64,000 bases of DNA from Nematocida ausubeli (Eukaryota), in assembly GCF_000738915.1 (NCBI RefSeq), contig NW_026515636.1:521175-585174 (forward strand), given 5' to 3'. A program made the position numbers and the translations under genes. This document shows, in pieces, positions 7,777 through 57,810 of the stretch; position 1 is the stretch's first letter, and every line of letters begins with the position of its first letter. The notes under the pieces are model-generated. The model saw only the letters and a program-made list of their open reading frames with translations. It was not told the origin of the DNA and made no database searches.

Positions 7777-8202
7777 TTATTGTGTCTTTGTCTTTACATT
7801 CATGCGCCTAAATAGCTCATAGTATGCTGTGACTGGAATAATTAGCATAAGAATAAATGCTTTGCACCCAAAGAATACACTAGATACCTTTATACCATAG
7901 AATGTATATAGAATATCTATTATAACCCGAATTATCCCTCTACTCTGCAAATCTATTCCACTCTCCATTATTTCAAGGCCCTTGCTTGTTTTAATGTACT
8001 TCGGGTGCACTAAGTATGCAAGAATTCCTAGCACCAGAGACTCAAATACTACAGTAACCACTAAGGGTCCACTTACCAAACTCTTTCTAAATATTCCATT
8101 CCCAAGTACTGCACAGATACTCAATACTAATGCACTCCCAATTAGTATTTTCAGCTGCTGTGAATTTCTTTTTATTCTTCTTTTTGTTGACTCAGATGCC
8201 AT
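7777..8202 (-). CDS. SND2: TMEM208/Snd2 (DUF788) ER membrane protein
   Basis: MASESTKRRIKRN N-terminus, TM helices, GIDLQSRGIIRVIIDILY and LIIPVTAYY. Confidence 0.75.
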   Translation of the reverse strand: MASESTKRRIKRNSQQLKILIGSALVLSICAVLGNGIFRKSLVSGPLVVTVVFESLVLGILAYLVHPKYIKTSKGLEIMESGIDLQSRGIIRVIIDILYTFYGIKVSSVFFGCKAFILMLIIPVTAYYELFRRMNVKTKTQ

Positions 8203-8230
8203 TCTAAAATTGTCTCTTTAAATTTTTTAT

Positions 8231-9961
8231 ATGAAGCCTGTCCAGTTTACTACTACAGGCCTGTCTTCATTGGAAAAGAGTCTTATCATAAGGCTATTCA
8301 AAGGCACAGAATATATCCTGGAGGAAACAATGACATCAAGTATTTCGTATCTTTTATCAAATAAAAGTACATTTACAGAGAAGAGAATTCTTGCTGAGAG
8401 GTGGGGTATTCCTGTGATTAGCATTATGTGGGTGTATAAGTCACTGTCTCAAAAGAGCATCTTGCAGTTTAAATTAAGAAAGTATGAAGGATGCGTCTTC
8501 TGTACATCTGGAATTACAAATGACTTATTTATAAACTATTATAGATTGCATGGTGCATACCACTCATCAGTTCTCACTCGGTACTGTGACTTTCTGGTGG
8601 TTAATTCATTAGAACAAGATACTGATAAGATTATGTATGCGAAAGAGTGGAATATTCCAATTATCACAGCAGAGACAGTCTTTGATGACAGAATTACATT
8701 CTTCATGAAGACCATACAGTACGAGAGTTTTATTAGTGAGCCTCTTACGGATGAAATATTCAATGGAAAGATATTTTACTTTGAAGGAGAGACAGAGATA
8801 CATAAATTAGTACGGCGGCTGATAATTGAGCATGGTGGGAATAGAGTTGAGGAACCAGGGCCTGATGTAGACTATTCAATCTATTTTGGGAGTGATGGAA
8901 AAGGAAGGAATCTTGTGTGGTACCAATGGATCTTAGACAGTGCAGACCTAGGGACCCTTCTGTCCTCTGAAGGATACGAAGTGCATCATGCAGAACTTCC
9001 TTCACTTCCATTGGAAAATATGATTATTTTCCCTATAGTCTGCAAAGAAGAAGGTCTTAGAACAAAAAACAAAGTGAATGCCCTTGGGGGTGAAGTGTCG
9101 ATGCAAATAAGCAGCAAAATAACCCATTGCATTGTTGAAAGGAAAAGCAGACAGCTTCAAAGCAAGATGCAAGTATACATGAAGACGTACAAAATACACG
9201 TGTGCTTTTTGGAGTGGCTGAACCAGTCTATATACTATATGAAAAAACTAAATGAAAATAAGTTTGAAATGCCGGTGGGCCTTAAAACTATCCCGGAATC
9301 AGTGATGGACAGGACGGAAATGCGAAAAAGGGCATCTGTCAAATATATGCCTGGAAATCTTGATGGATGGAAGGTTCAATTTACAGGCCTAGTGGACACT
9401 CTGAAGGAACAGGCAGTTAAAGTACTGCAGGAGAAAGGCGTGGCAGTAATTGACTCCCCAGAGTACTCGCCAGAATGTACTCATTTAATTGTAGGGGCAG
9501 TGAATGTGTCATTGAAATTCCTGTGCGCAATCGCATGCGGGGCAGTTCTTATGGACTATCAGGTCATTGATGACTTAAAGCAGAATATCTACACGGCAGA
9601 GAAGAGCTACAATTTGGAGACAAGAAATATAAAGATTGATGCCCCAAGGAACGAGAAGATTATTCGAAAATTAATCAGGGCAGCTCCTGTATGGAAGGCC
9701 AAGAAAGAGAAATGCAAGAAAAAGGCATTTACAGGCTGGAGAGTACATATACTAGCGACCAAGGACACAGCCAGGATAGAACAACTAATTGAAAATGGTG
9801 GAGGTGAAGTGGTAGTCCATGGGGGTGATGAAAATATTCATAAAAATAGTTTCTATTTTGTGGATGCTGCAACCAAAGTGCCACCGGAAATACCGCCTGC
9901 ACAAATTATTGAAATGAAAGATATCATAGGACATCTAGCACAAGCTAAGCAGATTGGATAA
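8231..9961 (+). CDS. Multi-BRCT replication/checkpoint scaffold, TopBP1/Dpb11-like
   Basis: Several BRCT repeats (WGIPVISIMWV, WNIPII, WYQWILDS, ITHCIV...LEWLNQS). The C-terminal CTHLIVG...KFLCAIACG...AFTGWRVHI resembles TopBP1 BRCT7/8. Confidence 0.7.
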   Translation: MKPVQFTTTGLSSLEKSLIIRLFKGTEYILEETMTSSISYLLSNKSTFTEKRILAERWGIPVISIMWVYKSLSQKSILQFKLRKYEGCVFCTSGITNDLFINYYRLHGAYHSSVLTRYCDFLVVNSLEQDTDKIMYAKEWNIPIITAETVFDDRITFFMKTIQYESFISEPLTDEIFNGKIFYFEGETEIHKLVRRLIIEHGGNRVEEPGPDVDYSIYFGSDGKGRNLVWYQWILDSADLGTLLSSEGYEVHHAELPSLPLENMIIFPIVCKEEGLRTKNKVNALGGEVSMQISSKITHCIVERKSRQLQSKMQVYMKTYKIHVCFLEWLNQSIYYMKKLNENKFEMPVGLKTIPESVMDRTEMRKRASVKYMPGNLDGWKVQFTGLVDTLKEQAVKVLQEKGVAVIDSPEYSPECTHLIVGAVNVSLKFLCAIACGAVLMDYQVIDDLKQNIYTAEKSYNLETRNIKIDAPRNEKIIRKLIRAAPVWKAKKEKCKKKAFTGWRVHILATKDTARIEQLIENGGGEVVVHGGDENIHKNSFYFVDAATKVPPEIPPAQIIEMKDIIGHLAQAKQIG

Positions 9962-10506
9962 ATAAATAGATTATATTATCCTTATATAATATTCTATAGA
10001 GATATAGGATTCTTGTGGATTTTAGTCAGGATAGAGATCTTTATGACTAAAATCAAGAATTACTGTTTTCCAAGTTGCAACAAAATACTTATATATTTTA
10101 AAGAACTCCATTGTATATGCTGTTTATTCCCATGTAAATCTGTTTGTTCATAGGTTTCTTACTCCTTCTACTCTTCCCACAAGAATTTTATAGTTCTCCT
10201 TATGTTAATAGAATATATTAAGGTTTTTTATAATTATTTAAATATAAACCTGTTCATTTTTATTTTCTTATCTTTACGAGTGTGAAGGTTTTAAAAGTTT
10301 CAGATACCCAGAATATAATCAAAATTAAGATAAAGTGGTAGTTAAGTTATAGATACCCTGAAGAAAGTACTATAAGAAAGACCCTTATAAAGAGTAAATA
10401 ATTAGTAGAGACAGTATATCCTGTGGGTAAAGTATTCATGTGATTTATTTAAATTTGAAAGATTCTACTGTACCACAGAGAGCACAGTATAGTCATCACT
10501 TGTGTA

Positions 10507-11664
10507 TTATGAATTATCTGCAGTTTCCTTCTTATCTTTAAGATATTCTAGGATCTTTGGGATAATCATCTTCCCTACAAAGAATGTATCTGTCTCATAT
10601 AGAGTCAATTCCGGGTCATTGTTTATCTCTCGCTTAGAGACTTCTTTCCCATCAAATAATATTTTCTGTGCAAAGTCATTGCCTGGGGGTGCATATATAA
10701 AGAACTCTCTCTTACCATTTGCAATGGAGTTTATAATGTAGAACTCATAATTTCGACTCTTTCTGAACTCTTCTATTTCCTTCAAAAATCTCTCTTTTCC
10801 ATCCCTTTCTATCCACTCATTATAACCGTATTTAACTGAACATATTCCAAAAGACCTTTTTGATTTGTCTGGATATAAATACTTCTTATTCCGCATTCCA
10901 ATAATAATCCGAGTACTTCCAGTGCATTTTGCTTCTTCCTTCTTTTTTATTGTAGAGTGTATGGCTTTCGCCTTGTCTATAGGTACTTTTGTCATTTTTA
11001 GTATTCCTTCAATCGCAGATATATCTAATTTATGTGTTCTTTCCGTTAAGAATGACGTGTCTGTAAGGATAGGGATACTTAGAAGAAACATAAACTGGTA
11101 ATTTCCCGGGTTCAGATCAATTTCTGGCTTATAATACATCTGTATATAGTGAAATATTAACGTACAGCAGGAACCAGCATGCAGGTCAATCCACATGCCT
11201 TGAACATGAGGAAATACTCTTTCTTCCTCTATTATACTTCTGTGATCAAGAATTCTCTCTACATGAAAATTTTTGTTTTGAAGAAGTTCTTCTTCTGGGT
11301 TACTAAAATCAACAAGAAATGCATTAATTTCTGTTTCTTTAACGGAAATAGAATCTCTGCCTCTTACAAGAAAAATGTCTTTTCCTTTTGTCTCCAAAAA
11401 AACCAAGTCATCCAAGGATAAGCCCATCTGCTTAGTCACATAGCACAGGTCTTCTTTGTATTCAAATAATTCTCTTGAAATATTTACCACAGGAACTCGA
11501 TTCTCCATCAGACCCAGCACACAGGACCCAATGAATGAATCTTGGTCGCACCCTGTATTCCCTAACGTAATCATGATCTTACCAGTTCCCTTGTAAATCT
11601 TGTATATTTCATCAAATTTACGTGCAAGAGTGCATTTTTGTAGGATTTCTTCTAGTTTATGCAT
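10507..11664 (-). CDS. PPX1: DHH-family exopolyphosphatase (Ppx1/Prune-like)
   Basis: GNTGCDQDS, LVDFSN, ILDHR, GSCCTLI and ILTDT motifs. Confidence 0.8.
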   Translation of the reverse strand: MHKLEEILQKCTLARKFDEIYKIYKGTGKIMITLGNTGCDQDSFIGSCVLGLMENRVPVVNISRELFEYKEDLCYVTKQMGLSLDDLVFLETKGKDIFLVRGRDSISVKETEINAFLVDFSNPEEELLQNKNFHVERILDHRSIIEEERVFPHVQGMWIDLHAGSCCTLIFHYIQMYYKPEIDLNPGNYQFMFLLSIPILTDTSFLTERTHKLDISAIEGILKMTKVPIDKAKAIHSTIKKKEEAKCTGSTRIIIGMRNKKYLYPDKSKRSFGICSVKYGYNEWIERDGKERFLKEIEEFRKSRNYEFYIINSIANGKREFFIYAPPGNDFAQKILFDGKEVSKREINNDPELTLYETDTFFVGKMIIPKILEYLKDKKETADNS

Positions 11665-11827
11665 GAATTTGCACTTAAGAAAGGCTTTTATACTAAGCAG
11701 GGGAATATACGTTGATTATTGGCCATATATTCACATAAATAATTGGCGATATAGGAATATATTTTGGTCTAGAGGTTCTTTTGAACTGCAAGCCCATTAA
11801 TGCACCAGTCTTTATATTAGTCTAAAT

Positions 11828-11870
11828 TCGGGTTATATCGGGTTATATCGGGTTTATATTCGGGATATAT
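11828..11870. repeat. Tandem TCGGGTTATA motif cluster
   Basis: TCGGGTTATA twice plus two degenerate copies. It is the reverse complement of the cluster at 61788-61840. Confidence 0.8.
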
Positions 11871-12536
11871 TAGGGTATTTCAGTGAGTTTTAGTCTATAT
11901 TTCAATGAGATATTTTTATACTCAGAATTCTATTGGTCTCTCCCTTGCCATAGACCAATTTATAGAATAGATTTATAGAGTACTCTAGAGCCTTTGTTTC
12001 TTTGAATTTTCTGTAGGAAAATCACATGAAATATAGACAAAAAGACAGTCTATTTTACACAAAGAGTTCAGCAATTATATACATACAGAGTATACAGACT
12101 TGACTTCTTAAAAGGAGCCATTGTTAGAGTTTAGTATTTATTGAGAACTCAACTCTTTAATTATTTTGATTTTTAAGTTAATTTTGTCATTTATCAAACT
12201 GTTACTAATTAAAACTAAAGATAAAAATTCAGTTAAAATTACCACTATATAGACACTAGATACATATAATATTAATATGCCATCTATCAAAGTAAATGAA
12301 CAAATATTAATTTGTTATTCTAGCCAATATAATCCATGAAATTATATAATTTTCTGAAAATATAACGTACACCATAAGCACTACAATTTTAAATATACTC
12401 GATAAGATATGACTTAAATTGCATATATATGAGTTTATACAGTATTTTTACCTTTCCCCAAGCAGTATACCATAGAGACTACTTATTTCTTTCTGTTAAA
12501 ATTGAAATTAAAATATTTATTTTTTTTATTTTTTAT

Positions 12537-12640
12537 CCCCTGGGCTTAAAACCTCACTCTCCAAGACATAACTGAGATGATCAGCATGCCCCTGCGCAAG
12601 GACGGCATTTTGCTTTGAGAAGTACAGGGGAAACCCTTTA
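12537..12640 (+). ncRNA. U6: U6 spliceosomal snRNA (divergent)
   Basis: ACTGAGA (12571-12577; ACAGAGA-box variant), TGATC, AGC catalytic triad (12583-12585), then ISL ATGCC-CCT-GCGCA-AGG-AC-GGCAT (12586-12608). CCCCTGCGCAAGGA matches human U6 and GAGATGATCAGCA matches yeast U6. Telestem-like pairing of TCTCCAAGACA with TGCTTTGAGA. GC-rich island in AT-rich intergenic DNA; ends approximate. Confidence 0.9.
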
Positions 12641-12653
12641 GTGCTTAATATCC

Positions 12654-15600
12654 TTATTTAGTCTCAATAATTATATGTACCTTTGTGGTTGTAGCATAAC
12701 TTAAGTCAGAAATTAGCTTAGGCGTAATAACAATTGCTTGTTTATCACTGATTGACTTATCTCCAACCAGCATACTATGGATTGTTCTTTCATATCCTGC
12801 ATCCATTCCTTGATTTATTTCATCCACCAGCAAGAACGGGGCATCAGATAGTTTCTGCATAGAAAGAAGGTATAGAATAATGGAAACTGCCTTTTCACCT
12901 CCACTATGCCGTCCTGCTGAGAGTACTTCTAGTTGTCCTTCTGTTCTAAATTGCACCTTCAGGACTAATTTCCACCTACGAGGAAATTCGCAGTACTCTG
13001 CATGTACTTCAGATCCTATCCCAGCTGCATGGAAGAGAGAAGTGGCTTTTTCATTGATATTATTGATTAATCTGTCTATTTCCACTCTAAGTTCTGTTTC
13101 TTTCCTGGTCTTAATTATCTCATGTTTCTCTTGTTCTGACTCTTCTCTTTTAATTGATCTTTCCATCTGCTGCAGTTGTAGTTTACAAGTCTCATACTCT
13201 TCTATTGCAGAGTAGTCTACTATGGATATTTCTGCCTTTGCCTTTTCTTGGGCCAGCATTGAGGTGAGTGTCTTTATGCAGGTTGTGAGTGATTTTATTT
13301 TACTTTTCTTGTCCTCTGTGTCTATGGTGTACGTTGCATCTGCTTCTGCCTTCTTTCTGGTTGCTTGTCTTTTTAATTCTTCAATCTCTTCTGATGCCTT
13401 TAATATACTACTGTGGTCTTCCTTTAAGGCCTGCTTTCCATTAAGTATTTCTGTTTTCTTCTTATTCAGGTCATCGTACTGGGTCTCCATGATTCTTGAC
13501 TTCTGGGCTAACTCCTCAATACTGCTGTAGAGAGCAGTTAGTGGCAGGTTTTTCCAGAAAGGACCTTCTTCCTTCTTTATTCTTCTTAAATCTGCCTCTA
13601 TTCTTTCTTGTTTCTCATTCAAATCTGCACTTTCTTTTGAAATTTCTTCCATTCTTTCTTTGTATGCTTGTTCTTCTCGCTTCAATCTTTCATATTTCTC
13701 TTGCTCCATAAGATCTGCTTCTTTTATTTTCTTCAGTTCATTCAGTCTTTTTTCAATTTGCTCCCTCTTCTGTAGTACGTTCTTCCTGTACTCTGTTCTT
13801 TTTTCTCTTTCCAAAATTAACCGTTTTAATTCTTCTTTTTTTTCTGTTAGATTATATGGCTTTGAAAATACGTCAATTCCCTTTGATATTGGATATATAG
13901 TGAGTGTTTCATCCTTTGTGTACTGTGATCTTCTAATTTCAACTACCCTTTTGTTCGATATTATTCGGGTTATCTTCCTGTACTTACCAAAGAATTCATG
14001 TTCATCAGAAAGTGACAGTTTTGTAACAGGAATATACGATAATTTTGAGAAAATATTCAAGAATTCTTTCACTGCATCTGGTGCCTCAATGCACTCAGAG
14101 AGATAGACCATTTTATATTTTTCATCCAATGGAACTGACTGCATCTTTACTGCTCCTTCTGTACTGTTAATCTGTCTTTCTGTTACATTAATTGCAAGAC
14201 CTCTTTTATCTTTGAATTCCTGAATGAACTCATGGAATGAATCTTTTGAGTGACAGACAAAACACGTCAGTGCATGGACATTCAACTGACTGGAGACTTC
14301 TTCTTTATATTCGTCCTTTGTTATCTTCATTGTTAGAATTGCAGGCAGTGTCACATCCCATTTCTTCTCACTTTTCTTCAATATTTCTACTACAGTGTAT
14401 GTATCTCTATGCATGGCCTTAAGGGTTTCCATCAGTCTTTCTTCTGCTTCATCTCCTTTTTTCAGTTCTATCTCTAGATTCCTTAATTCAGATGCCTTTA
14501 AAGCAGATTCTATCTGCCATGAACTATCTTCCATCTTACTACGTTTATGTTCATCATCTAATCTACTGTACTCTTCTTGTAGATGACTAGTTAATTTTAT
14601 CTTTGGGATTTCTATCTTTCCATTTCTGTTGGGTACTGGCATCTCTACTTTCTCTTTGGTTAGACGAGATATTCTACCTTTTATCACATGAATTTCTTCT
14701 TCTACTAGTCGTTCTTTTTCTTCACTTCTTCTGATCTCAGAGATATTCTGTGTGAATGCTGAGATATCCACCATACTCTCAATCTCTGCTTTTATTCTTT
14801 TTATTCTATCAGTCTCTGCTGCATATTCTGTCTCTAGTACATCTATTCTTCTCTGTTGTTCTTTGTATATTTCTTCTTCTTTCTTTAGTTTTTCCCTTAG
14901 TTCATCTCTTTGGTTCTTTATTGTCTGATACTCCACCCACTTAATTTTACTTTGCAGCAAGCTAATGTGCTCCTTTCTCTCCAAGAATTCTTTTAATTTC
15001 TTCTGTTCTTCTTCAAGTCTTTCCATCTTCTGGTGTAGTTCATTTCTTTGTGATATTTCCTTCTGTAGTTTCTTTTTGTAATCGACTAATCCATCTGAAA
15101 TTTCCTCCAATTCCCTTTTCTTCTGCAGTAGATCTGGCTTACATGCAGTTAAGGTTGTCTCTAATTGTTCTTCTTCCGTGAGAGTAGAGAATTCAGTGAC
15201 TTTATCTTGAGGCAGAAATTGCCCAAGATTATTTATTTGGATACTCAGGGCTTCTGTTATTTCTTTCACTTGGTTTAATGTGGCAGGTATACTATTTATC
15301 TTATACGATGATCCATTTAGTGTTATGGTTCTGGTTATAATTATGTCTATTACTCTGTCTTTCCCGTTGATTTTTACAATTTTAGAGACTTCACTCCTTC
15401 TGTCTGTCCTAATAACAAGTTCAGAGACAGCCTTTGTCTCTCCGTACTTTATAAGCTCATGTACACCCAGAGTCTTACCCATGGTTTTACTGGTGCCCCC
15501 TAGAGTTAATGCAATTGCACCTGCCACTGTACTCTTACCAGAGCCATTCAATCCTGCAATTAAATTCCCATGCGGTGAGAAAATAAATCTAGTATTCGCG

Positions 15601-15656
15601 TACTTCTGGAAATTCACTAAACTCAATGAGTGCAAGAAAGTGTTTCCCATGTGCAA
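12654..15656 (-). CDS. SMC5: Structural maintenance of chromosomes protein 5
   Basis: Walker A GLNGSGKST, QINNLGQFLPQDKV, long coiled coils, HSGGEKAVS and LVDEINQGMD (SMC5-type). Confidence 0.92.
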   Translation of the reverse strand: MHMGNTFLHSLSLVNFQKYANTRFIFSPHGNLIAGLNGSGKSTVAGAIALTLGGTSKTMGKTLGVHELIKYGETKAVSELVIRTDRRSEVSKIVKINGKDRVIDIIITRTITLNGSSYKINSIPATLNQVKEITEALSIQINNLGQFLPQDKVTEFSTLTEEEQLETTLTACKPDLLQKKRELEEISDGLVDYKKKLQKEISQRNELHQKMERLEEEQKKLKEFLERKEHISLLQSKIKWVEYQTIKNQRDELREKLKKEEEIYKEQQRRIDVLETEYAAETDRIKRIKAEIESMVDISAFTQNISEIRRSEEKERLVEEEIHVIKGRISRLTKEKVEMPVPNRNGKIEIPKIKLTSHLQEEYSRLDDEHKRSKMEDSSWQIESALKASELRNLEIELKKGDEAEERLMETLKAMHRDTYTVVEILKKSEKKWDVTLPAILTMKITKDEYKEEVSSQLNVHALTCFVCHSKDSFHEFIQEFKDKRGLAINVTERQINSTEGAVKMQSVPLDEKYKMVYLSECIEAPDAVKEFLNIFSKLSYIPVTKLSLSDEHEFFGKYRKITRIISNKRVVEIRRSQYTKDETLTIYPISKGIDVFSKPYNLTEKKEELKRLILEREKRTEYRKNVLQKREQIEKRLNELKKIKEADLMEQEKYERLKREEQAYKERMEEISKESADLNEKQERIEADLRRIKKEEGPFWKNLPLTALYSSIEELAQKSRIMETQYDDLNKKKTEILNGKQALKEDHSSILKASEEIEELKRQATRKKAEADATYTIDTEDKKSKIKSLTTCIKTLTSMLAQEKAKAEISIVDYSAIEEYETCKLQLQQMERSIKREESEQEKHEIIKTRKETELRVEIDRLINNINEKATSLFHAAGIGSEVHAEYCEFPRRWKLVLKVQFRTEGQLEVLSAGRHSGGEKAVSIILYLLSMQKLSDAPFLLVDEINQGMDAGYERTIHSMLVGDKSISDKQAIVITPKLISDLSYATTTKVHIIIETK

Positions 15657-15870
15657 AAATATTTATATTTGTTTTTATAGAAATATTCAGCTGGAAATCA
15701 AAAATATAATAGAGTAGAAGAGAGATATTTCTGAATGAAAATTAACGGAAAATATACCTGATATAAATTATATTTTATATCTACAGGAATATCCACTCAA
15801 ATTAATAAGAGTGACTTATTTTATAGTAGTATAAGGACTATTTTATTCTATTATATTTGAAAATAAGTCT

Positions 15871-16170
15871 TATTGACGTGACTAAAGGGGGTGACAAGCT
15901 AGTCTGGAGATACTAGTCTAAGATGGTTAGATAGTAGTTGTCCAGTGAGTTATATTATCATATTTTTTCAGTTGGTGACTAAGACCTGTTGCATACTTGT
16001 TGGATGTACTTCTTACTGTTGACATGTTCTGCCTTTTCAGTATTGTTCTTACTATCTTACTATTATATAGTCAGTCTCTGGTATACAAGGAATCTTCTGG
16101 AAGTTGAATTTCTCATTGATGGACTCTTGTGGCTTCAGAATAATGAAAGTGGTATTTTTACCACACTTAT
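15871..16170 (+). repeat. Dispersed intergenic repeat family A, long copy
   Basis: Reverse complement of 41730-42035, for example TGACGTGACTAAAGGGGGTGAC and TATATAGTCAGTCTCTGGTATACAAGGAATCTTCTGGAAG. Confidence 0.85.
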
Positions 16171-16692
16171 TTAAGAAGATATTCTACTAGTATACTATAT
16201 ACTGGGTATAACTAAAATAGTTAAATTATTTGTGAGTTTTTATATAGTATGAAAATATGTTGAAATTAGTCCTTTTGTGTTCTAGTTTTAGAGTGCATTA
16301 TAAGATGTAAATATGTATATATATTAACCCACATACTCCTAGACTAATTAGTACTATTATTCGGGTTATATCTGTATATTTTTGAAGGTCTTTTTAGTAG
16401 AGACTTTACCATGAAAAATAAGCACTAGTTGATCGAACTGGAAATAAGCGAATCAAAGAATATTACTCCTTGATACAGAATTTCATGAATATTTGGCTGC
16501 TCCTATAGAGTGAAAATTAATACTGCATTTAAAATGGCTTTTTTTGACCAATTATTCTCTTCCTGTGCGAAATATTTCCTATGAAAAATATTCAATTGGG
16601 CAGAGAGAAGAAGGCCTTTGGTCCATAAGGAATTTGAATGATTGGTCTACCCCAGAATAAAATACTCCTTATACTACGTCCAAATAGAAGAT

Positions 16693-17250
16693 ATGCCTCC
16701 CTTCGACAACACTGCCTCTGGAGATAAAACAAATCTAAAACAAAGTGTTTCAGAAGACCAAAAGCACGTACAACTGGAGGAAATAATTCTCAAAAGCATA
16801 AATGATCAGGAAAGTCTGTTTACACGTGCATTCTTCACGGAACAGCCTAAATATGAATATACAGACACATATGCCAATGATATAATTGATATGTGCTCAG
16901 CCTACAACCTAGACGACATAATGTACAATCTTCCAAACATAGGTGTAGACAGGTTCGTGCACAGTTCATTAATTCATGATGACCGGGAGAAGGAAGACCA
17001 AATATTCAAGGCAAAGTGCCGTCAGAAGCACATGCCAAAAAGAGATGGCGAAGAAAATAGGCCATTCACCTGTACGTATTCGAATTGTCATAAGGCATTC
17101 AAGCGGTTTGAGCACTTAAAGCGTCATTACCGCATCCATACTGGCGAAAAACCCTTTAAATGCACGGTATACGGCTGCAATAAGTCATTCTCAAGGTCTG
17201 ACAATCTTATGCAGCATGAAAAAATACATATAAACAACCGAAAAATGTAG
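16693..17250 (+). CDS. Two-finger C2H2 zinc-finger transcription factor (Msn2/Seb1/SteA-like fingers)
   Basis: [53 protein letters not shown]. First in-frame ATG is at 16693. Confidence 0.88.
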
Positions 17251-17514
17251 CACCAATGGATGATGCACTAATGTTTCATTTTCGTATGGTAGGTTACGTC
17301 GATTCTGAGAAGAACATCTATCCTTGGAGGTGTTCATATTGTGAATAAAATTAAAGAATCTTTTCTAGTTATCAGGTGATAATTTTTGTTATCTGCAGGA
17401 ATAAACGGTTTATTCAATAATCCTAACGGATTTTGCTATTTGAAGATGCATTCTCAAATGTATCTGGTAAGAGATCATTTTGATTCAATCAAATTCTTCC
17501 ATGGAGATTGTCAG

Positions 17515-18912
17515 TTACTGTCTCATTACCCAGTTTGTAAGCAGTTTGACTGGTCTTCCAGTGGCACCCTTTCCATGCAGTTCTGGTGTCAGGGTATTGA
17601 ATGCTACGCCTGCTATGTCAAGGTGTGCCCAAGGTGTCTCCTTAACAAACTCCCTCAGGAAGAGTGCTGCTGTAATTGATCCTCCTGCTGGTCCCCCGAC
17701 ATTCTTTAAGTCTGCAACCTCGGATGAGATCAGGGACTTGTACTCGTCTGTCACAGGCAGTCTCCACAGCTTATCCCCCACCTCAAAGGACGTACTAGCC
17801 AGGGACTCAGCCAGTTCGTCTGAATTACTGAATAGTCCTGCCATGACAGGCCCAAGTGAGACTGTAATTGCACCTGTTAATGTGGCAATATCAATGATCT
17901 TGACAGGATTGAATTTCAATGCATGATCAAGTGCATCAGCCAGAACTAATCTTCCTTCTGCATCTGTGTTATCCACTTCCACACTCTTCCCTGCACTCCC
18001 AATATGTACATCTCCTGGCTTGGTTGCACTCCCGGATGGAAGGTTCTCTGTCAGAGGGATAATCCCAACTACATTTACATTCGCAGACAACCTGGCAAGT
18101 GCACCTATTGTACTAACTACAGAAGCACCTCCTCCCATGTCACCCTTCATGGCTGCCATCTTAGCAGAAGGCTTTAAGCTGATACCACCTGAGTCAAAGG
18201 TAATTCCCTTTCCAACCAAAGCAATACACTCCTTCCCGTCTTCCTTGCCCTTGCTGTAGGAAATCTCAAGAAGCTTAGGCTCTTCAACAGATCCATTCGA
18301 GACCCCTAAGAAGAGATTCATGTTCATCTTCTTTATTTCATCCCTTCCATATACCTTTACAGTTACATCCTTTGGGAGATATGCCTTAGAGTATTCCACG
18401 AATAAGGTTGGTGTCATTTTATTGGCAGGCGTATCCACTAGGAACCTGGCAAAGTTCTGGGCCTCAGATACTTGTATGGCCTGTAGTACATCTATACTTT
18501 CTCCTGTATACACTAGTCTCAATGGAGTATTCTTCTTGCTGTGCAGTAAATCATATTTATACGATGAGATAATAATACCTTCTACTACCCAGGGTGTAAT
18601 TACAGACTCTTTTTCCTTGTCAATTACCACAAACTCAACCTCTTCCTTCAATAGTCTTCCAGTTGCCTTGGCTGCTATGCTTCTGATTTCCGTCAAATTG
18701 TTCATTTTATCCTCTGTTACTTTGCATAGAACACAAACTCTCTCGTTATATACAGTCCACATATTAGATGGATTACCAGGGAGTACAGATGCAATTGCCT
18801 GGATATCACTGGGTAACTCACTTATTTCTTTAAAAAGTATTATTTCCCCTTGTTTTCCTTCTTTTATTTCTGTCTCACTTCTGCAGCATATTCTCTTCCA
18901 ATCTAAATCCAT
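17515..18912 (-). CDS. Cytosolic leucine aminopeptidase (M17)
   Basis: VGKGITFDSGG, MKGDMGG, NTDAEGRL, ATLTGA and WAHLDIAG. Confidence 0.95.
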   Translation of the reverse strand: MDLDWKRICCRSETEIKEGKQGEIILFKEISELPSDIQAIASVLPGNPSNMWTVYNERVCVLCKVTEDKMNNLTEIRSIAAKATGRLLKEEVEFVVIDKEKESVITPWVVEGIIISSYKYDLLHSKKNTPLRLVYTGESIDVLQAIQVSEAQNFARFLVDTPANKMTPTLFVEYSKAYLPKDVTVKVYGRDEIKKMNMNLFLGVSNGSVEEPKLLEISYSKGKEDGKECIALVGKGITFDSGGISLKPSAKMAAMKGDMGGGASVVSTIGALARLSANVNVVGIIPLTENLPSGSATKPGDVHIGSAGKSVEVDNTDAEGRLVLADALDHALKFNPVKIIDIATLTGAITVSLGPVMAGLFSNSDELAESLASTSFEVGDKLWRLPVTDEYKSLISSEVADLKNVGGPAGGSITAALFLREFVKETPWAHLDIAGVAFNTLTPELHGKGATGRPVKLLTNWVMRQ

Positions 18913-18984
18913 TAATATATAAAAATAAAAATACTTTTATGCTAAATTAACCTTAATATACATATATTTATTTAAGTAGACAAG

Positions 18985-19165
18985 AAGATAGTAGGTAGAT
19001 AGTAGTATAGGTAGTAGTATAGATAGGGTAGTAGTATAGATAGTAGTATGGGCAGTAGTATAGATAGGTTAGGTAGGGTAGGTAGATAGTAGTATAAATG
19101 GATAGGTTGGATAGTAGTATAGATATTAGTATAGGTTAGATGGGTAGTAGTATAGGTAGGGTAGT
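18985..19165. repeat. GATA/TAGG-rich simple repeat
   Basis: TAGTAGTATAG and TAGGTAG units directly 5' of a family-A copy. Confidence 0.8.
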
Positions 19166-19340
19166 TGTCAAAGGGGTTTTATTTTTACCATATACTTGAA
19201 TATCTTTGGTTCCTGTAGTATTTCTTATTAGTACTGAATATATTTCTATTGAGAATATTTTACTCTAGTTCTATTAATATTTTCACACTAGTATATGGTA
19301 TTGGTATAGGAAGAATCCTTCTGGAGAGTGAAATTGAAAT
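19160..19340 (+). repeat. Dispersed intergenic repeat family A copy
   Basis: AAAGGGGTTTT...TTTTACCATATAC...GAATATCTTTGG...CTATTGAGAATATTTTACTCT is shared with 32210-32440. Confidence 0.85.
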
Positions 19341-19626
19341 TAAAATTAAAATTGAATATTAGCTTACTAGTACTACAGACTGCAGTCAATATATATATGT
19401 AGATATATGTCTTAGTATAATATATGCCTTAGTGAATTCCCTCAAATATACCTAGATATAAGTACTTCTGGTTTATACTTGCATAATTTTATTTTTCGGT
19501 TATATTGAAGTATGTTGTGATTTGTGAGTTGCTTTTATTTTGTCTTGGAATTAGTTTTATTTTATTCTGGTCACTGCTGCTTCTAAGTATCTTTAATTTC
19601 TTTTCACTTTATTTCTCTTTTTTTTC

Positions 19627-20265
19627 ATGAAAAAAATGGGAAAAGTCTGGCCAGGCGAAATATTAGAGTACACGGATGACTGCCTAGAAGGACATGGAAT
19701 ATATAAAGAATTAGACAGTAAAAATGAAGAAATATTTGTTTCTAGCATAGCAGGCACTGTAAAACAAGTAGATAGACTAATAACAGTTGAAGCAAATACG
19801 TACTGGTATACTCCTGGGGTAGGAGATATTGTAGTAGGAAGAGTCACTGGCATAGCAAATAAAAGATGGTACATTGAGATAAACTCAAGACAGGAGGCAA
19901 TTTTACTCCTTAATGCGATCAGTCTCATAGGGAATGTTCAGAGAAGAAAGGGTGAATTAGATGAAATAATGATGACTGAGTACTACAGCATAGGAGACAT
20001 TGTAATAGCAGAGGTGCAGTCAACAGGGAATAAAATACAATTGCACACAAGAAGTTCCAGATATAGAAAGATATCCTTTGGGGTTCTGATTAAGCTAGAG
20101 AATATATCATCTGAGAATGGAGTGCAGTACCACAAGGAGAAGATCAATGGGAAAGAGGTTGAAATAGTCATAGGCAAGAATGGATATGCTGTAGTACATA
20201 GTGATGATCACACTGCTCATGCAGAGATAAAGGAAGTGGCACTATCACTATCCAACTATACATAA
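19627..20265 (+). CDS. RRP4: Exosome cap subunit Rrp4
   Basis: EGHGIY, YTPGVGDIVVGRV, QRRK, GDIVIAEVQ, LHTRS and IGKNGY. Confidence 0.88.
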   Translation: MKKMGKVWPGEILEYTDDCLEGHGIYKELDSKNEEIFVSSIAGTVKQVDRLITVEANTYWYTPGVGDIVVGRVTGIANKRWYIEINSRQEAILLLNAISLIGNVQRRKGELDEIMMTEYYSIGDIVIAEVQSTGNKIQLHTRSSRYRKISFGVLIKLENISSENGVQYHKEKINGKEVEIVIGKNGYAVVHSDDHTAHAEIKEVALSLSNYT

Positions 20266-20948
20266 AATATAATGAAATCTCATAAACTTTCAATAATATA
20301 CAATTAGATATATCTAGATAGAGAGTGACTTTATTGTCTCTTTTATAGGGATGGTGTCTAAATAAAAGTCCTTTTTAATGTATTTATTGTGCTTTGTATA
20401 TACTAGTATACTAGTCATATAAATGTCTGTTGATTTTCCTGGTATAAAATCAATTTATAACACAGTGGCAGTCAAAGAGACAGAAGTATTATAGTCTCTA
20501 TAAGGAATACTGTTGATCTTATTGTTTTGTTCTTTGTGATCAGTAGATTTTTATAAGTATCCTTTATAAAGTATCTTAATCAATAGATATATATTTCATT
20601 AAAAATCAGTTTATAACATACTATATTTACTGTAGTATTTATATCTTTATAAGGCATAAGACACAGAGATAGATGGAATATTTCCTTTATGTAAATTTCT
20701 ACTAGGTTTCATAATATTCCCTTATACTGTATTATTATACAGTAGTACATACTATTCTAATTTTCTGAATATTTCTAGTTGAAAATAAAATATTAACTCT
20801 CTTTTTTCTTCTGAAGGCTTTCATTTTCATTTTAAAGCGAGGAACTAATGAAGAGAGAAAAAATAAAACCACGGCAAGAACTAAAATAGAAATGCACAAA
20901 ATTAAATAATAAGTACTTTATTAACAAGAATACCATAAGATAGAGTAT

Positions 20949-21565: not shown

Positions 21566-22270
21566 ATGGATGAGCACACGACTAGAACAATTCTTATCAC
21601 AGACTTTCCAAAAAATATAGCACATGCGCACTTACTCAGGATCTGTAAAACAGTTGGAGCAGTAAAAGAGCACTTTGTCATGAACAACAAGCACTCAGTC
21701 TTTTTTGTCTCATTCTATGACTTAAGAACAGCAAAGAAGGCAAAGGATGTGCTTTCAGGGGAAAAGAACGGGTTTACAGTGAAATATGCAATATCACAGC
21801 GAGAAATCCCAAAAGGCAGCGACAGCTGCACAGAAGACAAGAACCAAGGCAGTGTGGTCTATATGGCAAACGAAGCAGTAGAGCCAGAAAACCAAGAAGA
21901 AGTCATGGATAGTATTAAGAAAGGAAAAGAACACACAGTCAGGTTCTACAACTCAAAAGAAGCCTTAAAGTTCTTGAACTCCTTAAAGACAGAGCACCCA
22001 AGGAGCCAGCCTAAGATAGTATGGGACAATGACCTAAGGAAGAGAATAACCCTACTTAAGGCAGCAGAGGAAATTGTAAAGACAGCACCAGCCGGGTTCT
22101 TCAAAGGAGTCTCAGCAACAGAACAACCAATGAAGAGGCAAATGGAACAAGAGAATGGACCTGGCACAGAGACAATGAAAAGAACAAAAATGTCAACAAA
22201 TTGGATGCTTGCATTATTTGACAGTTTTATCACAGAGAATGCAGATAGAATCCTAGCAAACCTAGGATAG
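21566..22270 (+). CDS. RRM RNA-binding protein with Mei2-like N-terminal RRMs
   Basis: TRTILI, FFVSFYDLRTA and KNQGSV resemble Mei2-like RRM1/2. Likely start MDEHTT at 21566. Confidence 0.6.
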   Translation: MDEHTTRTILITDFPKNIAHAHLLRICKTVGAVKEHFVMNNKHSVFFVSFYDLRTAKKAKDVLSGEKNGFTVKYAISQREIPKGSDSCTEDKNQGSVVYMANEAVEPENQEEVMDSIKKGKEHTVRFYNSKEALKFLNSLKTEHPRSQPKIVWDNDLRKRITLLKAAEEIVKTAPAGFFKGVSATEQPMKRQMEQENGPGTETMKRTKMSTNWMLALFDSFITENADRILANLG

Positions 22271-30838: not shown

Positions 30839-31135
30839 ATGCCCAGATATATAACTGGTAGTTATATTAGTACATTTAGTGCTAATGAGCCACAGGGAAG
30901 TAGATTATTTGGTGAAGGAGGATATTATAATGAAGATGAAACTTCATCAAGGATGTATAAAATGAAAAGATGTTTATGGAAGGTATGTTCTAGTAATATA
31001 ATGTGTGTTCTAGGTTATATAGCAGGGATTATTCTTATGATAGTACTGATTGGAGTATTTTTCTACCTAAATAGAATCAAAACCCCAAATACCGTTATAA
31101 ATGGACTTAGTGAGAAATTAGACTTCTTGGGTTAA
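30839..31135 (+). CDS. Small single-pass membrane protein, paralog 1
   Basis: ATG at 30839, 30 nt after TATAAATA. TM segment IMCVLGYIAGIILMIVLIGVFFYL; ends LSEKLDFLG. Confidence 0.8.
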   Translation: MPRYITGSYISTFSANEPQGSRLFGEGGYYNEDETSSRMYKMKRCLWKVCSSNIMCVLGYIAGIILMIVLIGVFFYLNRIKTPNTVINGLSEKLDFLG

Positions 31136-31749: not shown

Positions 31750-32043
31750 ATGGTCAGAGAAGAAAAAAAGAGAGAAAGTGCCATATTTAATGAAGATGAG
31801 AATATTATATTATTCCCTATGGCTGGTGCACATTATGATGATGATGAAACTCCATCAAGAATATATAAAGTGAAAAGTTCTTTATCAAAGTTCTGCTCTA
31901 GTAATATAATGTGTGCTGTTGGTTGTATATTAGTAATTATTTTTGTAATAGTAATACTTGGGATAATTCTATATCTAAATAGAACCAGATATGAAATTAC
32001 TTTTATAAATAGACTCAGTGAGAAATTAGACTTCTTTGGTTAA
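31750..32043 (+). CDS. Small single-pass membrane protein, paralog 2
   Basis: Shares DETxSRxYKxK, CSSNIMC, the TM segment, YLNR and LSEKLDFxG with paralog 1; flanks are also duplicated. Confidence 0.8.
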   Translation: MVREEKKRESAIFNEDENIILFPMAGAHYDDDETPSRIYKVKSSLSKFCSSNIMCAVGCILVIIFVIVILGIILYLNRTRYEITFINRLSEKLDFFG

Positions 32044-44660: not shown

Positions 44661-44906
44661 CTATTTATTTTTAAAGTCGGGGCTTATCATTGGCTTAGCT
44701 TGTCCCAGGAATATACAAGCCCAGGATATTATCATACAAAAGATAGTTGTCCAAACTGTGAACAAAACTGTCTCTTTTGTGGCTTTATTTTTTATCTTAA
44801 CAGACGTATTTATTATTCCCATGATGGTGTACCCTGCGACTAATCCCATTAGACTCACGAAGCCAACAACTGCAAGTGGTGGCCAGTCTTGAATTCTTAA
44901 AAACAT
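44661..44906 (-). CDS. VMA9: V-ATPase V0 subunit e
   Basis: Two TM helices; FCMIISWACIFLGQAKPMISP matches the W...L.Q..P.i.P motif. Confidence 0.8.
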   Translation of the reverse strand: MFLRIQDWPPLAVVGFVSLMGLVAGYTIMGIINTSVKIKNKATKETVLFTVWTTIFCMIISWACIFLGQAKPMISPDFKNK

Positions 44907-44928
44907 GAAGACTAAAAATTAAATTTTG

Positions 44929-45156
44929 CTAAAAGCAGCAGTCACAGTCAATTGGACAATTTGGTGTATTCCCACCCCTACCAATTTTAAGTTCTTCTTG
45001 TGTATATATCTTATATCCATCACATGAGAATATATCTTGTTCTAAGGCACTGCTGCCTCTTACTTCGTATGGTTTTTCTTTTTTTGTCTTTGTCTTTCTA
45101 TTGGGTTTTATGTCCTTTGGTTTCTGTGCAAATATGTCGTCTATTGGGCTAGCCAT
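44929..45156 (-). CDS. DUF1764 family protein
   Basis: IDDIF...DGYKIYTQEELKIGRGGNTPNCPIDCDCCF. Confidence 0.85.
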   Translation of the reverse strand: MASPIDDIFAQKPKDIKPNRKTKTKKEKPYEVRGSSALEQDIFSCDGYKIYTQEELKIGRGGNTPNCPIDCDCCF

Positions 45157-45339
45157 AAAATATTTTACAATAGAGATATTTTTAATTACTACAGAAAAGA
45201 CCGTTAGGTTGTCATTTTATATAAATATACTGGGTTATAGTGTATTTTTACTATAGAGTGAATTATTCTGGAATATATGGTCTTAGTAGTATATTGTACT
45301 ATTAAAGTACTTATTCATATACTGTCTCTAATAATTTGG

Positions 45340-56014: not shown

Positions 56015-56959
56015 TTATTCTCTCTTTAGTAATCTATCTACTTTATCTATGGAATATTTTGCAATTGTAGATATATTTAGTATATCCTCTATTGATGCTT
56101 TTCTTCTTGTTTCTTCCATTATATTAATGTCATTTTGTAATTCTTCTAGATTTCTTAGATTTCTTATCAATGAGATTTGCTTCTTATCTGTGATGTACAT
56201 GGTCTCTGGGGTCACTGGTATCTCATATAAATGGATTCCAATTCTTTCCATGCTGGGTACTTTAAGATGTGGATTTCTTTTGCTCCCGTACTTATAGACT
56301 GCGTATATTGATAGACCATGTGGATCACAGTCAAAAAGACCAAATATTCTTATAGATCTTGCAATAGACAGGAATTTAAGAGTATTAGTACATGGATAAC
56401 CCTTTCCTGTTACAATTATTATCTCTTCCATTCTATTTTTATATGCAGTATCTTGTATGATATCATTGAAGACTGCTTCTTTTTCTACTACAATTATTGC
56501 TGATGCCTTTGTGAATATTTTAGTTTCTTTCTGTATCCTTGGGATAATTGAAGTATTTTCCATCTGAACGACTTTTTCTTGGAATTTTAATGAAAATATT
56601 CCATGGACTAGTCCTTTGTACGATGGAACAATCAAAGATATCTCTATTTTTAGGCGTATCTTTATGTAATCTATCACACGCACTGTGTGATTTTGGTTCT
56701 TAAAGACTCTTTTGCATCTATAGAATATTTCTCTAATGGTTATTTCTTTGCACTCACAGAGTATCACATAATATACATTAAGCACAGGAATAGCACATTC
56801 TAATCGCATTCTACCAATAATTACGTCTTCAATGACTGCCAGAATATCATTATACAGGATATCAGAGTACTTGCACTCCTGATATCTCAGAAGAAATGCA
56901 CTTTTATCCTTAAGGATGCCTGCCAGAAATGAGACAGTAAGAAGGTTCTTCCTAGTCAT
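56015..56959 (-). CDS. SPO11: Meiotic recombination protein Spo11 (TopoVI-A)
   Basis: TIREIFY (catalytic Tyr), IIVVEKEAVF, TGKGYP and DCDPHG (TOPRIM). Confidence 0.93.
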   Translation of the reverse strand: MTRKNLLTVSFLAGILKDKSAFLLRYQECKYSDILYNDILAVIEDVIIGRMRLECAIPVLNVYYVILCECKEITIREIFYRCKRVFKNQNHTVRVIDYIKIRLKIEISLIVPSYKGLVHGIFSLKFQEKVVQMENTSIIPRIQKETKIFTKASAIIVVEKEAVFNDIIQDTAYKNRMEEIIIVTGKGYPCTNTLKFLSIARSIRIFGLFDCDPHGLSIYAVYKYGSKRNPHLKVPSMERIGIHLYEIPVTPETMYITDKKQISLIRNLRNLEELQNDINIMEETRRKASIEDILNISTIAKYSIDKVDRLLKRE

Positions 56960-57199: not shown

Positions 57200-57810
57200 C
57201 AATAAATAGATAGGTAGGTAGATAGATAGGTGGATAGTAGGTGAATAGTAGATAGATAGTGGGTAGATAGTAGGTGGATAGATATGAGTACTTTTCAAGT
57301 GTGTATTATTTTTGTCTTATATTTGAATATCTTTGGTATCAGTTATTTGAATATATTTGGTGTCAGTTATTTCTATCTTATATTTGTCAGTTATATTTAT
57401 CTTATCCTTGAATATCTTTGGTGTCAGTTATATTTATCTTACTATTAATATTTCCATACGAGAACTAGTAGCCTTCTTCTGTACGAAAAATATTTCAGAG
57501 GGTGAAAATTGAAGGACTTTTAGCCTCAGAATAATAATGTGTAATTTTACCACAGTAATGGTATATTGCTTTATTATAGATGCGCCTATGAATAAACATG
57601 CAGAAATATGCCACTCACTGGCTCTAGGTGGAATATATAGTGTAGTAAAATACTCTCATTAGAAATTTCCACTTACCAAAGAATTCTTCAGAAATTCCTT
57701 CAGTATAAGAATGCGAAATTAACAAAAAGAGAAAATATCCTTAGAGAGAAATAGATCTAAAATGAACAAAAAGGGCAAATATTCACAGGAATAAAACTCC
57801 CTTAAGAACA
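57200..57810. repeat. GATA/TAGG repeat followed by degenerate family-A fragments in both orientations
   Basis: TAGG/TAGA repeat at 57200-57290, repeated GAATATCTTTGGT(G/A)TCAGTTAT, and reverse fragment GTAAAATACTCTCATT...CTTCAGAAATTCCT at 57644-57700. Confidence 0.55.

What the first reader, a model, noticed from the sequence alone, without database searches (positions are those of the whole stretch)
12537..12640. An intact-looking U6 snRNA gene in a Nematocida-like genome with no visible introns
Seen: all U6 catalytic elements occur in the right order and spacing (ACxGAGA box, U2-pairing UGAUC, AGC triad, ISL with GCGCA loop, telestem-like pairing). No gene in this window needs an intron, including both ribosomal protein genes, the usual intron hosts in microsporidia. 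Known, from memory and to be verified: Nematocida has been described as having lost introns and most of the spliceosome. Inference: there is either a cryptic minimal spliceosome serving very few unannotated introns or trans-splicing, or U6 has been kept for another role.
Basis: partly seen in the sequence, partly recalled or inferred. Interest (0 to 1): 0.9.

Follow-up and report, generated by a model that had tools for sequence, protein, structure and literature searches.

The report
U6 splicing RNA in "intronless" Nematocida
A parasite genus described as having lost all introns and its U6 splicing RNA still carries a U6 gene, kept almost letter for letter between two very distant members, so it likely runs a hidden, stripped-down splicing machine whose targets have not yet been found.

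Summary
The U6 gene is real. It lies at about 12542-12642 (+), tail-to-tail with SMC5, which is 98-99% identical to Nematocida ausubeli SMC5. Rfam U6 scores 31.3 bits (E 6e-6), below the 44-bit cut-off, so a default scan misses it. Cuomo 2012 reported U2 and U6 missing in this genus.

One metagenome scan found an orthologue in the same gene order in a Nematocida-clade genome on the other side of the deepest split in my SMC5 tree. SMC5 is 39% identical and four-fold sites are saturated (144 of 558), yet 78 of 82 U6 core columns are identical. The RNA has microsporidian hallmarks, an ACUGAGA box predicted to pair with GUAAGU donors, and a group II-like AC bulge.

A published table lists Prp8 and SmB in all three Nematocida assemblies and in none of the three other non-splicing genomes. 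It lists no U2-snRNP or step-2 proteins there.

I found no intron, U2, U4 or U5 in the 79 kb available, and transcription is untested. Best reading: catalytic RNA of a cryptic minimal spliceosome with very few substrates (0.5). Rivals: cleavage-only ncRNA processing, or a non-splicing role. Ten literature searches found no report of it.

The parts
12542..12642 (+). U6 snRNA gene, about 100 nt; both ends inferred, not mapped
   Evidence: Rfam U6 31.3 bits; orthologue in L001; 89 of 96 identical by blastn
12542..12555 (+). short 5' stem-loop, predicted; sequence diverged, 3 pairs kept (one G-U/G-C change)
12571..12577 (+). ACUGAGA box (ACAGAGA variant); ACU would pair Watson-Crick with intron positions +4 to +6 AGU
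   Evidence: sequence; identical in L001; same variant in C. merolae and in Nosema apis and N. ceranae
12578..12585 (+). UGAUC (U2/U6 helix Ia) and AGC catalytic triad
   Evidence: 8 of 8 identical in L001
12586..12608 (+). internal stem-loop: 5-bp lower stem, 2-nt AC bulge (12602-12603), 3-bp upper stem, GCGCA loop
   Evidence: 23 of 23 identical; pair probabilities 0.63-1.0
12616..12625 (+). UGAGAAGUAC, predicted U2/U6 helix II and 3' telestem strand
   Evidence: inside a 27-nt exact match with L001; UUGAGA or UUGGGA at this place in other microsporidian U6 and CUCUCAA near the Encephalitozoon U2 5' end
12626..12642 (+). 3' GAAA-loop hairpin and short U tail; only three U in a row in the window, U5 further on in L001
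   Evidence: an extra 3' stem is described for Encephalitozoon U6 and is visible in the Nosema rows
12654..15650 (-). SMC5 gene, convergent neighbour, used as species and synteny marker (not part of the RNA)

Best explanation
This is a U6 snRNA gene conserved almost unchanged between two distant Nematocida-clade genomes, and it likely serves as the catalytic RNA of a cryptic, extremely reduced spliceosome that would remove one or a few still-unannotated introns. Shown: the gene, its catalytic motifs, its synteny and its strong sequence constraint. Inferred from known U6 chemistry: a transcript of about 100 nt is bound at its U tail by Lsm proteins, delivered paired to an unfound U4, and released by a Brr2-type helicase. 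Inside Prp8, ACUGAGA would pair with AGU at intron positions +4 to +6 (GUAAGU donors), UGAUC and UGAGAAGUAC would pair with an unfound U2 (predicted GAUCA and GUACUUCUCA), and the AGC triad with bulged C12603 would hold the catalytic metals. The substrates are predicted to be few, short or very close to the 5' end, and poorly spliced, which would explain why RNA-seq mapping missed them.
For: (1) Constraint: 78 of 82 columns identical over 12562-12643, against 41 of 102 and 37 of 80 in the flanks and 144 of 558 four-fold sites in 8 orthologous genes. It is the only conserved non-coding island found in the compared syntenic block. (2) Depth: the two genomes fall on opposite sides of the deepest Nematocida split, about 2.2 substitutions per site apart in SMC5. 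(3) The segments whose known job is to pair with an intron, U2 and U4 are all invariant. (4) Prp8 and SmB are listed for all 3 Nematocida assemblies and for 0 of the 3 other non-splicing genomes; Lsm2/4/5/7, Snu13, Prp43 and a Brr2/Slh1 group are also listed (Desjardins Supplementary Data 1). (5) Precedent for missed introns: TopHat could not detect E. cuniculi introns, short 5'-biased introns gave no split reads in S. lophii and N. bombycis, and an intron was predicted in the apparently intron-lacking Pseudoloma. (6) The gene scores under Rfam's cut-off, a simple reason why it could have been reported missing.
Against: Cuomo 2012 saw no spliced transcripts and no U2 or U2AF. Desjardins' table lists for Nematocida no Hsh155, Prp9, Prp11, Cus1, Hsh49, SmD1/D2/D3/F/G, Luc7, Cef1, Bud31, Yju2, Cwc24 or Prp2/16/22, most of which the splicing microsporidia keep. 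Snu13, Lsm proteins, Prp43 and the Brr2/Slh1 group have non-splicing jobs (established knowledge). Nematocida lacks the Poly-A gene whose long intron all intron-bearing microsporidia share. No convincing intron, U2, U4 or U5 was found in the window or in L001. The window copy has no run of four T at the predicted end. With two sequences there is no two-sided compensatory change (0 of 15 pairs). I could not retrieve a Nematocida Prp8 to check that it is intact.
Confidence: 0.5

Rival explanations
1. The U6-Prp8 core is active but kept only to process a non-coding RNA, for example a first-step-only cut that makes the 3' end of telomerase RNA, or release of a snoRNA from a non-coding host. No mRNA is spliced.
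For: It fits the absence of spliced mRNA reads and of the Prp16/Prp22 group in the table while the catalytic RNA and Prp8 are kept. The conserved microsporidian long introns carry potential C/D snoRNA motifs. Spliceosomal cleavage of telomerase RNA in fission yeast and other fungi is recalled, not from a call.
Against: The first step also needs U2 and branch-site proteins, which are not listed for Nematocida. No such substrate was seen here.
Confidence: 0.2
2. U6 has been kept without U2, U4 or U5 for a non-splicing job, as a U6-Lsm or U6-Prp8 particle acting as scaffold or guide.
For: U2 and most U2-snRNP, Sm and NTC proteins are reported absent. Desjardins raised an alternative purpose for the retained proteins.
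Against: The 5' splice-site box, helix I, triad, ISL and helix II segments are all invariant, which a new job would not obviously require. U6 itself was also reported absent and is present, so the reported absence of U2 is doubtful.
Confidence: 0.17
3. The U6 serves trans-splicing (a spliced leader, or exons from separate transcripts) rather than cis-splicing.
For: Trans-splicing occurs in other intron-poor parasites with reduced spliceosomes and can escape ordinary split-read mapping.
Against: No leader RNA or split gene was seen. Most Sm proteins are not listed. Cuomo reports very short or no UTRs and mentions no leader in the passages read.
Confidence: 0.08
4. It is a dead relic, a host- or fungus-derived copy, an assembly contaminant, or a conserved 3' UTR element of SMC5.
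For: The score is below Rfam's cut-off and expression is not shown.
Against: It has 95% core identity at saturated neutral divergence and the same gene neighbourhood in an independent assembly. It shares C at the bulge, GGCAU, UGAGA and a 3' hairpin with microsporidian U6 rather than with the human or yeast rows. It lies 11 nt from the SMC5 stop in the window and 340 nt away in L001.
Confidence: 0.03

Closest known systems
U6 snRNA of Nosema and Encephalitozoon (Belkorchia 2017, PMC5499648; passages and supplement part 7 of 10 read)
   Same: AGC triad, CCCCUGCG loop, C at the metal-binding bulge, GGACGGCAU as in Nosema, UGAGA in the 3' arm, extra 3' hairpin; ACUGAG box as in N. apis and N. ceranae.
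   Different: Helix Ia reads UGAUC as in yeast, not AGAUU. One base is missing from the 5' ISL strand, which gives a perfect 5-bp lower stem and a 2-nt AC bulge. The 3' hairpin is shorter. Those species have known introns and a full snRNA set; Nematocida has none on record.
Cyanidioschyzon merolae reduced spliceosome (Black 2023, PMC10158995, passages; Hudson 2015, PMC4829280, passages and section 8)
   Same: ACUGAGA box with GUAAGU donors, very few introns, strongly reduced protein set.
   Different: C. merolae has about 27 introns, U2/U4/U5 and 11 U2 proteins on record. Nematocida has no known intron and no U2-snRNP protein listed.
Group II intron domain V
   Same: AGC triad, five pairs, then a two-base AC bulge (domain V anatomy recalled; the ISL comparison is discussed).
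   Different: This is a free-standing snRNA-type gene with U6 flanking segments. The likeness is best read as convergence through a one-base loss.
Microsporidia reported to have lost splicing (Enterocytozoon, Vittaforma, Edhazardia, metchnikovellids)
   Same: No annotated introns.
   Different: Those genomes have no Prp8 listed; Nematocida keeps Prp8 and SmB and, as shown here, U6.

Membership tests
U6 snRNA (functional class) | ACAGAGA-type box, AGC triad and ISL in canonical order and spacing | tested here: met
   the box is the ACUGAGA variant also found in splicing species
U6 snRNA (functional class) | five pairs between triad and metal-binding bulge; pentaloop | tested here: met
   predicted fold; no covariation possible with invariant sequence
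U6 snRNA (functional class) | 5' stem-loop and telestem | tested here: inconclusive
   both can form in both species despite sequence change, but the stems are short and no two-sided change was counted
U6 snRNA (functional class) | purifying selection in relatives | tested here: met
   78 of 82 columns against 144 of 558 four-fold sites; one relative only
U6 snRNA (functional class) | transcribed as a RNA of about 100 nt with a 3' U tail | not testable with these tools
   only contigs were offered, which cannot show ends or strand
Rfam RF00026 curated membership | score of at least 44 bits | tested here: not met
   31.3 bits and 27.8 bits in L001. It is therefore not filed as an Rfam-threshold member; the U6 call rests on the features above
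U6atac (minor spliceosome) | better fit to U6atac than to U6 | tested here: not met
   U6 is the kept best match of its clan
Functional major spliceosome | U2, U4 and U5 snRNAs present | not testable with these tools
   no whole genome held; none in the window or L001
Functional major spliceosome | intact Prp8 | tested here: inconclusive
   listed for 3 of 3 Nematocida assemblies; the sequence was not reached
Functional major spliceosome | U2-snRNP proteins and Prp2/16/22 helicases | not tested
   not listed for Nematocida in the published table; no search of my own
Functional major spliceosome | at least one spliced substrate | tested here: inconclusive
   none in 64 kb plus 15 kb; too little sequence to tell

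The most novel reading that the evidence does not exclude
Nematocida runs the smallest spliceosome known: U6 and Prp8 with divergent U2/U4/U5, without recognisable U2-snRNP proteins, NTC or step-2 helicases. Its active site has collapsed to a group II-like domain V, and it acts on one or a few hidden substrates, possibly only by a single cut in a non-coding RNA.
Probability: 0.3. Interest if true: 0.92.

Novelty: new variant of a known kind. Interest (0 to 1): 0.76.

Why it matters
Nematocida is cited as one of the very few eukaryotes that lost introns and splicing completely, with U6 explicitly listed as missing. A U6 under strong constraint across the genus contradicts that listing. It also offers an answer to the puzzle left by Desjardins 2015 of why Prp8 persists there. 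The sequence gives concrete search keys for U2, U4 and the donor site, so the question of what the last job of a dying spliceosome is can be tested with existing genomes and RNA-seq of a C. elegans model pathogen. It also warns that claims of complete spliceosome loss based on default Rfam cut-offs need rechecking.

Tried and rejected
No whole genome was held and L001's record could not be searched further, so U1/U2/U4/U5 and genome-wide introns are untested.

Sequencing runs: no RNA holder listed. Four of the 8 runs were laid on 8000-20500. One contig (X2, 12592-12988) overlaps the 3' half of U6 together with the SMC5 end and cannot show strand. The other three have no cover over most of the gene. 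The only joint (15917-16039, ends CT..TC) is not GT-AG. None of this is used as evidence. The rest of the window was not examined for joints.

The U6 core pattern gave 0 hits in viral and prokaryote collections.

Intron candidates: the one intron-like motif (57655-57676, minus strand) is intergenic, has no upstream ATG and is below chance level. The frame break in L001's aminopeptidase gene is a one-base gap in a G run, not an intron. Motif scans for U2/U4/U5 gave only scattered short matches.

Hunt for Nematocida Prp8: a motif scan gave 0 loci in viral contigs and 2 in genome contigs, of which L003 held a eukaryotic Prp8 and L002 did not. The representative search listed 150 of 6177 hits. I looked up names for 20 of the 150; none was Nematocida and 6 clusters were unnamed. 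The unnamed P0239 returned no named Nematocida relative.

Covariance model R1 was built with a misplaced 3' hairpin and was not used. The sigma-70 promoter scan does not apply to a eukaryote. Five look-ups of earlier findings returned nothing bearing on this. The supplements of Cuomo 2012 could not be read; they may describe how U6 was sought.

Full report
Observation. The window reads ACUGAGA (12571-12577), UGAUC, AGC and an internal stem-loop with a GCGCA loop (12586-12608), in U6 order. Rfam at gathering level finds nothing in the window. With an E-value threshold, U6 (RF00026) matches 12531-12639 over the full model at 31.3 bits, E 6.4e-6 in 601 nt and E 6.9e-4 over 64 kb, the better of 2 hits. 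The cut-off is 44 bits. Folding energy is not unusual by itself (z -1.3).

Organism. The convergent neighbour 12654-15650 is SMC5. It is 98-99% identical to three proteins named Nematocida ausubeli, 68% to N. parisii, 61% to N. minor and N. major, and 42-43% to N. displodere and N. homosporus. No whole genome was available.

Conservation. One scan of the metagenome collection with the core pattern returned 1 locus, L001. Its SMC5 equals protein P0014 and is 39% identical to the window's. The neighbourhood is the same: gamma-tubulin, frataxin, TMEM208, BRCT protein, U6, SMC5 tail-to-tail, zinc finger, aminopeptidase, Rrp4. Only the 385-aa gene before U6 is missing there. Across 8 orthologous pairs, four-fold sites agree at 144 of 558 (26%, saturated). 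The U6 agrees at 89 of 96 by blastn, with exact runs of 43 and 27 nt, and at 78 of 82 columns over 12562-12643, against 41 of 102 and 37 of 80 in the flanks. With coding regions masked it is the only conserved island in the compared block. Rfam scores the L001 copy at 27.8 bits. A quick IQ-TREE tree of 20 of the 31 SMC5 hits (left out: one near-duplicate, one fragment, nine distant hits) puts L001 inside a 12-row Nematocida clade (SH-aLRT 100). It groups with N. displodere, N. homosporus and AWRm77 (92), opposite the 8-row group that holds the window (99), about 2.2 substitutions per site away (no bootstrap, the careful search did not finish). The gene therefore likely dates to the common ancestor of the sampled genus. 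This rests on two sequences only. The element is 11 nt from the SMC5 stop in the window and 340 nt away in L001, so it is not a positional 3' UTR signal.

Anatomy. Compared by eye with the U6 alignment in Belkorchia 2017 (PMC5499648, supplement part 7 of 10), the RNA is microsporidian in type: C at the bulge, GGACGGCAU as in Nosema, UGAGA in the 3' arm, and an extra 3' hairpin. This argues against a host or fungal origin. The ACUGAG box also occurs in N. apis and N. ceranae and in C. merolae, whose donors read GUAAGU (PMC10158995, passages). ACU would pair fully with intron positions +4 to +6 AGU (inference). Relative to Nosema one base is missing on the 5' side of the ISL. The predicted fold is a 5-bp lower stem, a two-base AC bulge and a 3-bp upper stem (pair probabilities 0.63-1.0). 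This keeps five pairs between triad and bulge and resembles group II domain V (recalled; bulge flexibility in reduced spliceosomes is discussed in PMC4829280 section 8). The differences between the two copies fall mostly in the 5' stem-loop and telestem, which can still pair in both. Of 15 named pairs, 14 never vary, 1 varies on one side and 0 vary on both, so there is no covariation evidence. The window copy ends in only three U before AGU, while L001 has a U5 run; the termination signal is unresolved.

What is known. Cuomo 2012 (PMC3514677, passages; supplements not readable) reports no introns, no spliced reads, and U2, U6 and U2AF missing. A 2020 review (PMC7017984, passages) and others (PMC6545626, PMC8476143, passages) repeat the loss. 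Desjardins 2015 (PMC4435813; passages and all of Supplementary Data 1) calls the retention of some splicing proteins intriguing. Its table shows Prp8 and SmB in all 3 Nematocida assemblies and in none of E. aedis, E. bieneusi and V. corneae. Metchnikovellids also lack Prp8 (PMC5381614, PMC6190962, passages). The same table lists Lsm2/4/5/7, Snu13, Prp43, Cbc2 and a Brr2/Slh1 group for Nematocida, but no U2-snRNP protein, SmD1/D2/D3/F/G, Cef1, Bud31, Yju2, Cwc24 or Prp2/16/22. Whelan 2019 (PMC6349667, passages and part 1 of 2 of the results) finds no long intron and no Poly-A gene in Nematocida. It also shows that short 5'-biased introns often give no split reads and predicts an intron in an apparently intron-lacking species. 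Grisdale 2013 (PMC3629993, passages) notes that TopHat could not detect E. cuniculi introns. Ten searches found no report of a Nematocida U6; two further hits were read in passages and do not mention one. The library lacks most subscription papers and theses, so prior notice cannot be excluded.

Substrates and partners. In the window 1 short-intron motif was found against 5.4 +/- 2.3 by chance, and none in L001. RPS4 and RPL18A are complete from their N-termini. This says little: at E. cuniculi's density (37 introns, about 1981 genes) fewer than one intron is expected in about 45 genes. No U2, U4 or U5 was found in the 79 kb held. Whether Nematocida Prp8 is intact remains open.

Mechanism. The segments held invariant are those that pair with an intron donor, with U2 (helices I and II) and with U4, plus the metal-binding core. 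Together with the lineage-specific retention of Prp8, this points to continued splicing-type chemistry (about 0.78 for the three catalytic readings together). I put cis-splicing of very few hidden introns at 0.5, cleavage-only or non-coding RNA processing at 0.2 (the telomerase precedent is recalled), trans-splicing at 0.08, a non-splicing role at 0.17, and relic or artefact at 0.03. The main difficulty for the best reading is the published absence of U2-snRNP and step-2 proteins; these would have to be too divergent to detect, or dispensable.

Verdict. The feature is real and is a U6 by its features and ancestry, though below Rfam's curated threshold. Its presence and constraint in a genus cited for total loss of splicing appear to be unreported. 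Novelty: new variant of a known kind. Interest 0.76; 0.92 if a spliceosome without U2-snRNP proteins is confirmed (probability 0.3).

Noticed in passing
window 57624-57676 (-): The only microsporidian-type intron motif in the window: GTAAGT followed by CTAATGAG (22 nt) or, further on, TACTACAC and TAG (53 nt). It is intergenic, has no upstream ATG and is below chance level.
   Followed up: partly
protein P0286: Pancytospora philotis has a 1714-aa Prp8 matching 6 Prp8 Pfam families, with an unnamed relative P0255. Whether this genus has introns or U6 was not checked.
   Followed up: partly
L003 5017-12300 (-): An intron-rich eukaryotic Prp8 gene on a 482-kb contig filed in a bacterial genome assembly; likely contamination of that assembly.
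   Followed up: partly
L001 4940-4950: One-base gap in a G run shifts the frame of the aminopeptidase gene near its end; likely a sequencing or assembly error.
   Followed up: yes
window 10507-11664 (-): A DHHA2-like (possibly exopolyphosphatase) gene lies between the BRCT gene and U6 in the window but is absent at that place in L001.
   Followed up: no
window 12592-12654: The SMC5 stop lies 11 nt from the end of the conserved U6 block, so the SMC5 3' UTR probably overlaps U6 in antisense in this species.
   Followed up: no
window 30839-31135 and 31750-32043 (+): Tandem paralogues of a 97-98 aa protein with a hydrophobic stretch and near-identical upstream sequence; no Pfam match.
   Followed up: no
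window 21566-22270 (+): RRM protein that looks Mei2-like (recalled motif); Spo11 lies at 56015-56959 (-).
   Followed up: no
window 44664-44918 and 44932-45216 (-): Two small genes below the 90-aa ORF list: V-ATPase subunit e (PF05493) and DUF1764; both have an in-frame ATG and need no intron.
   Followed up: partly
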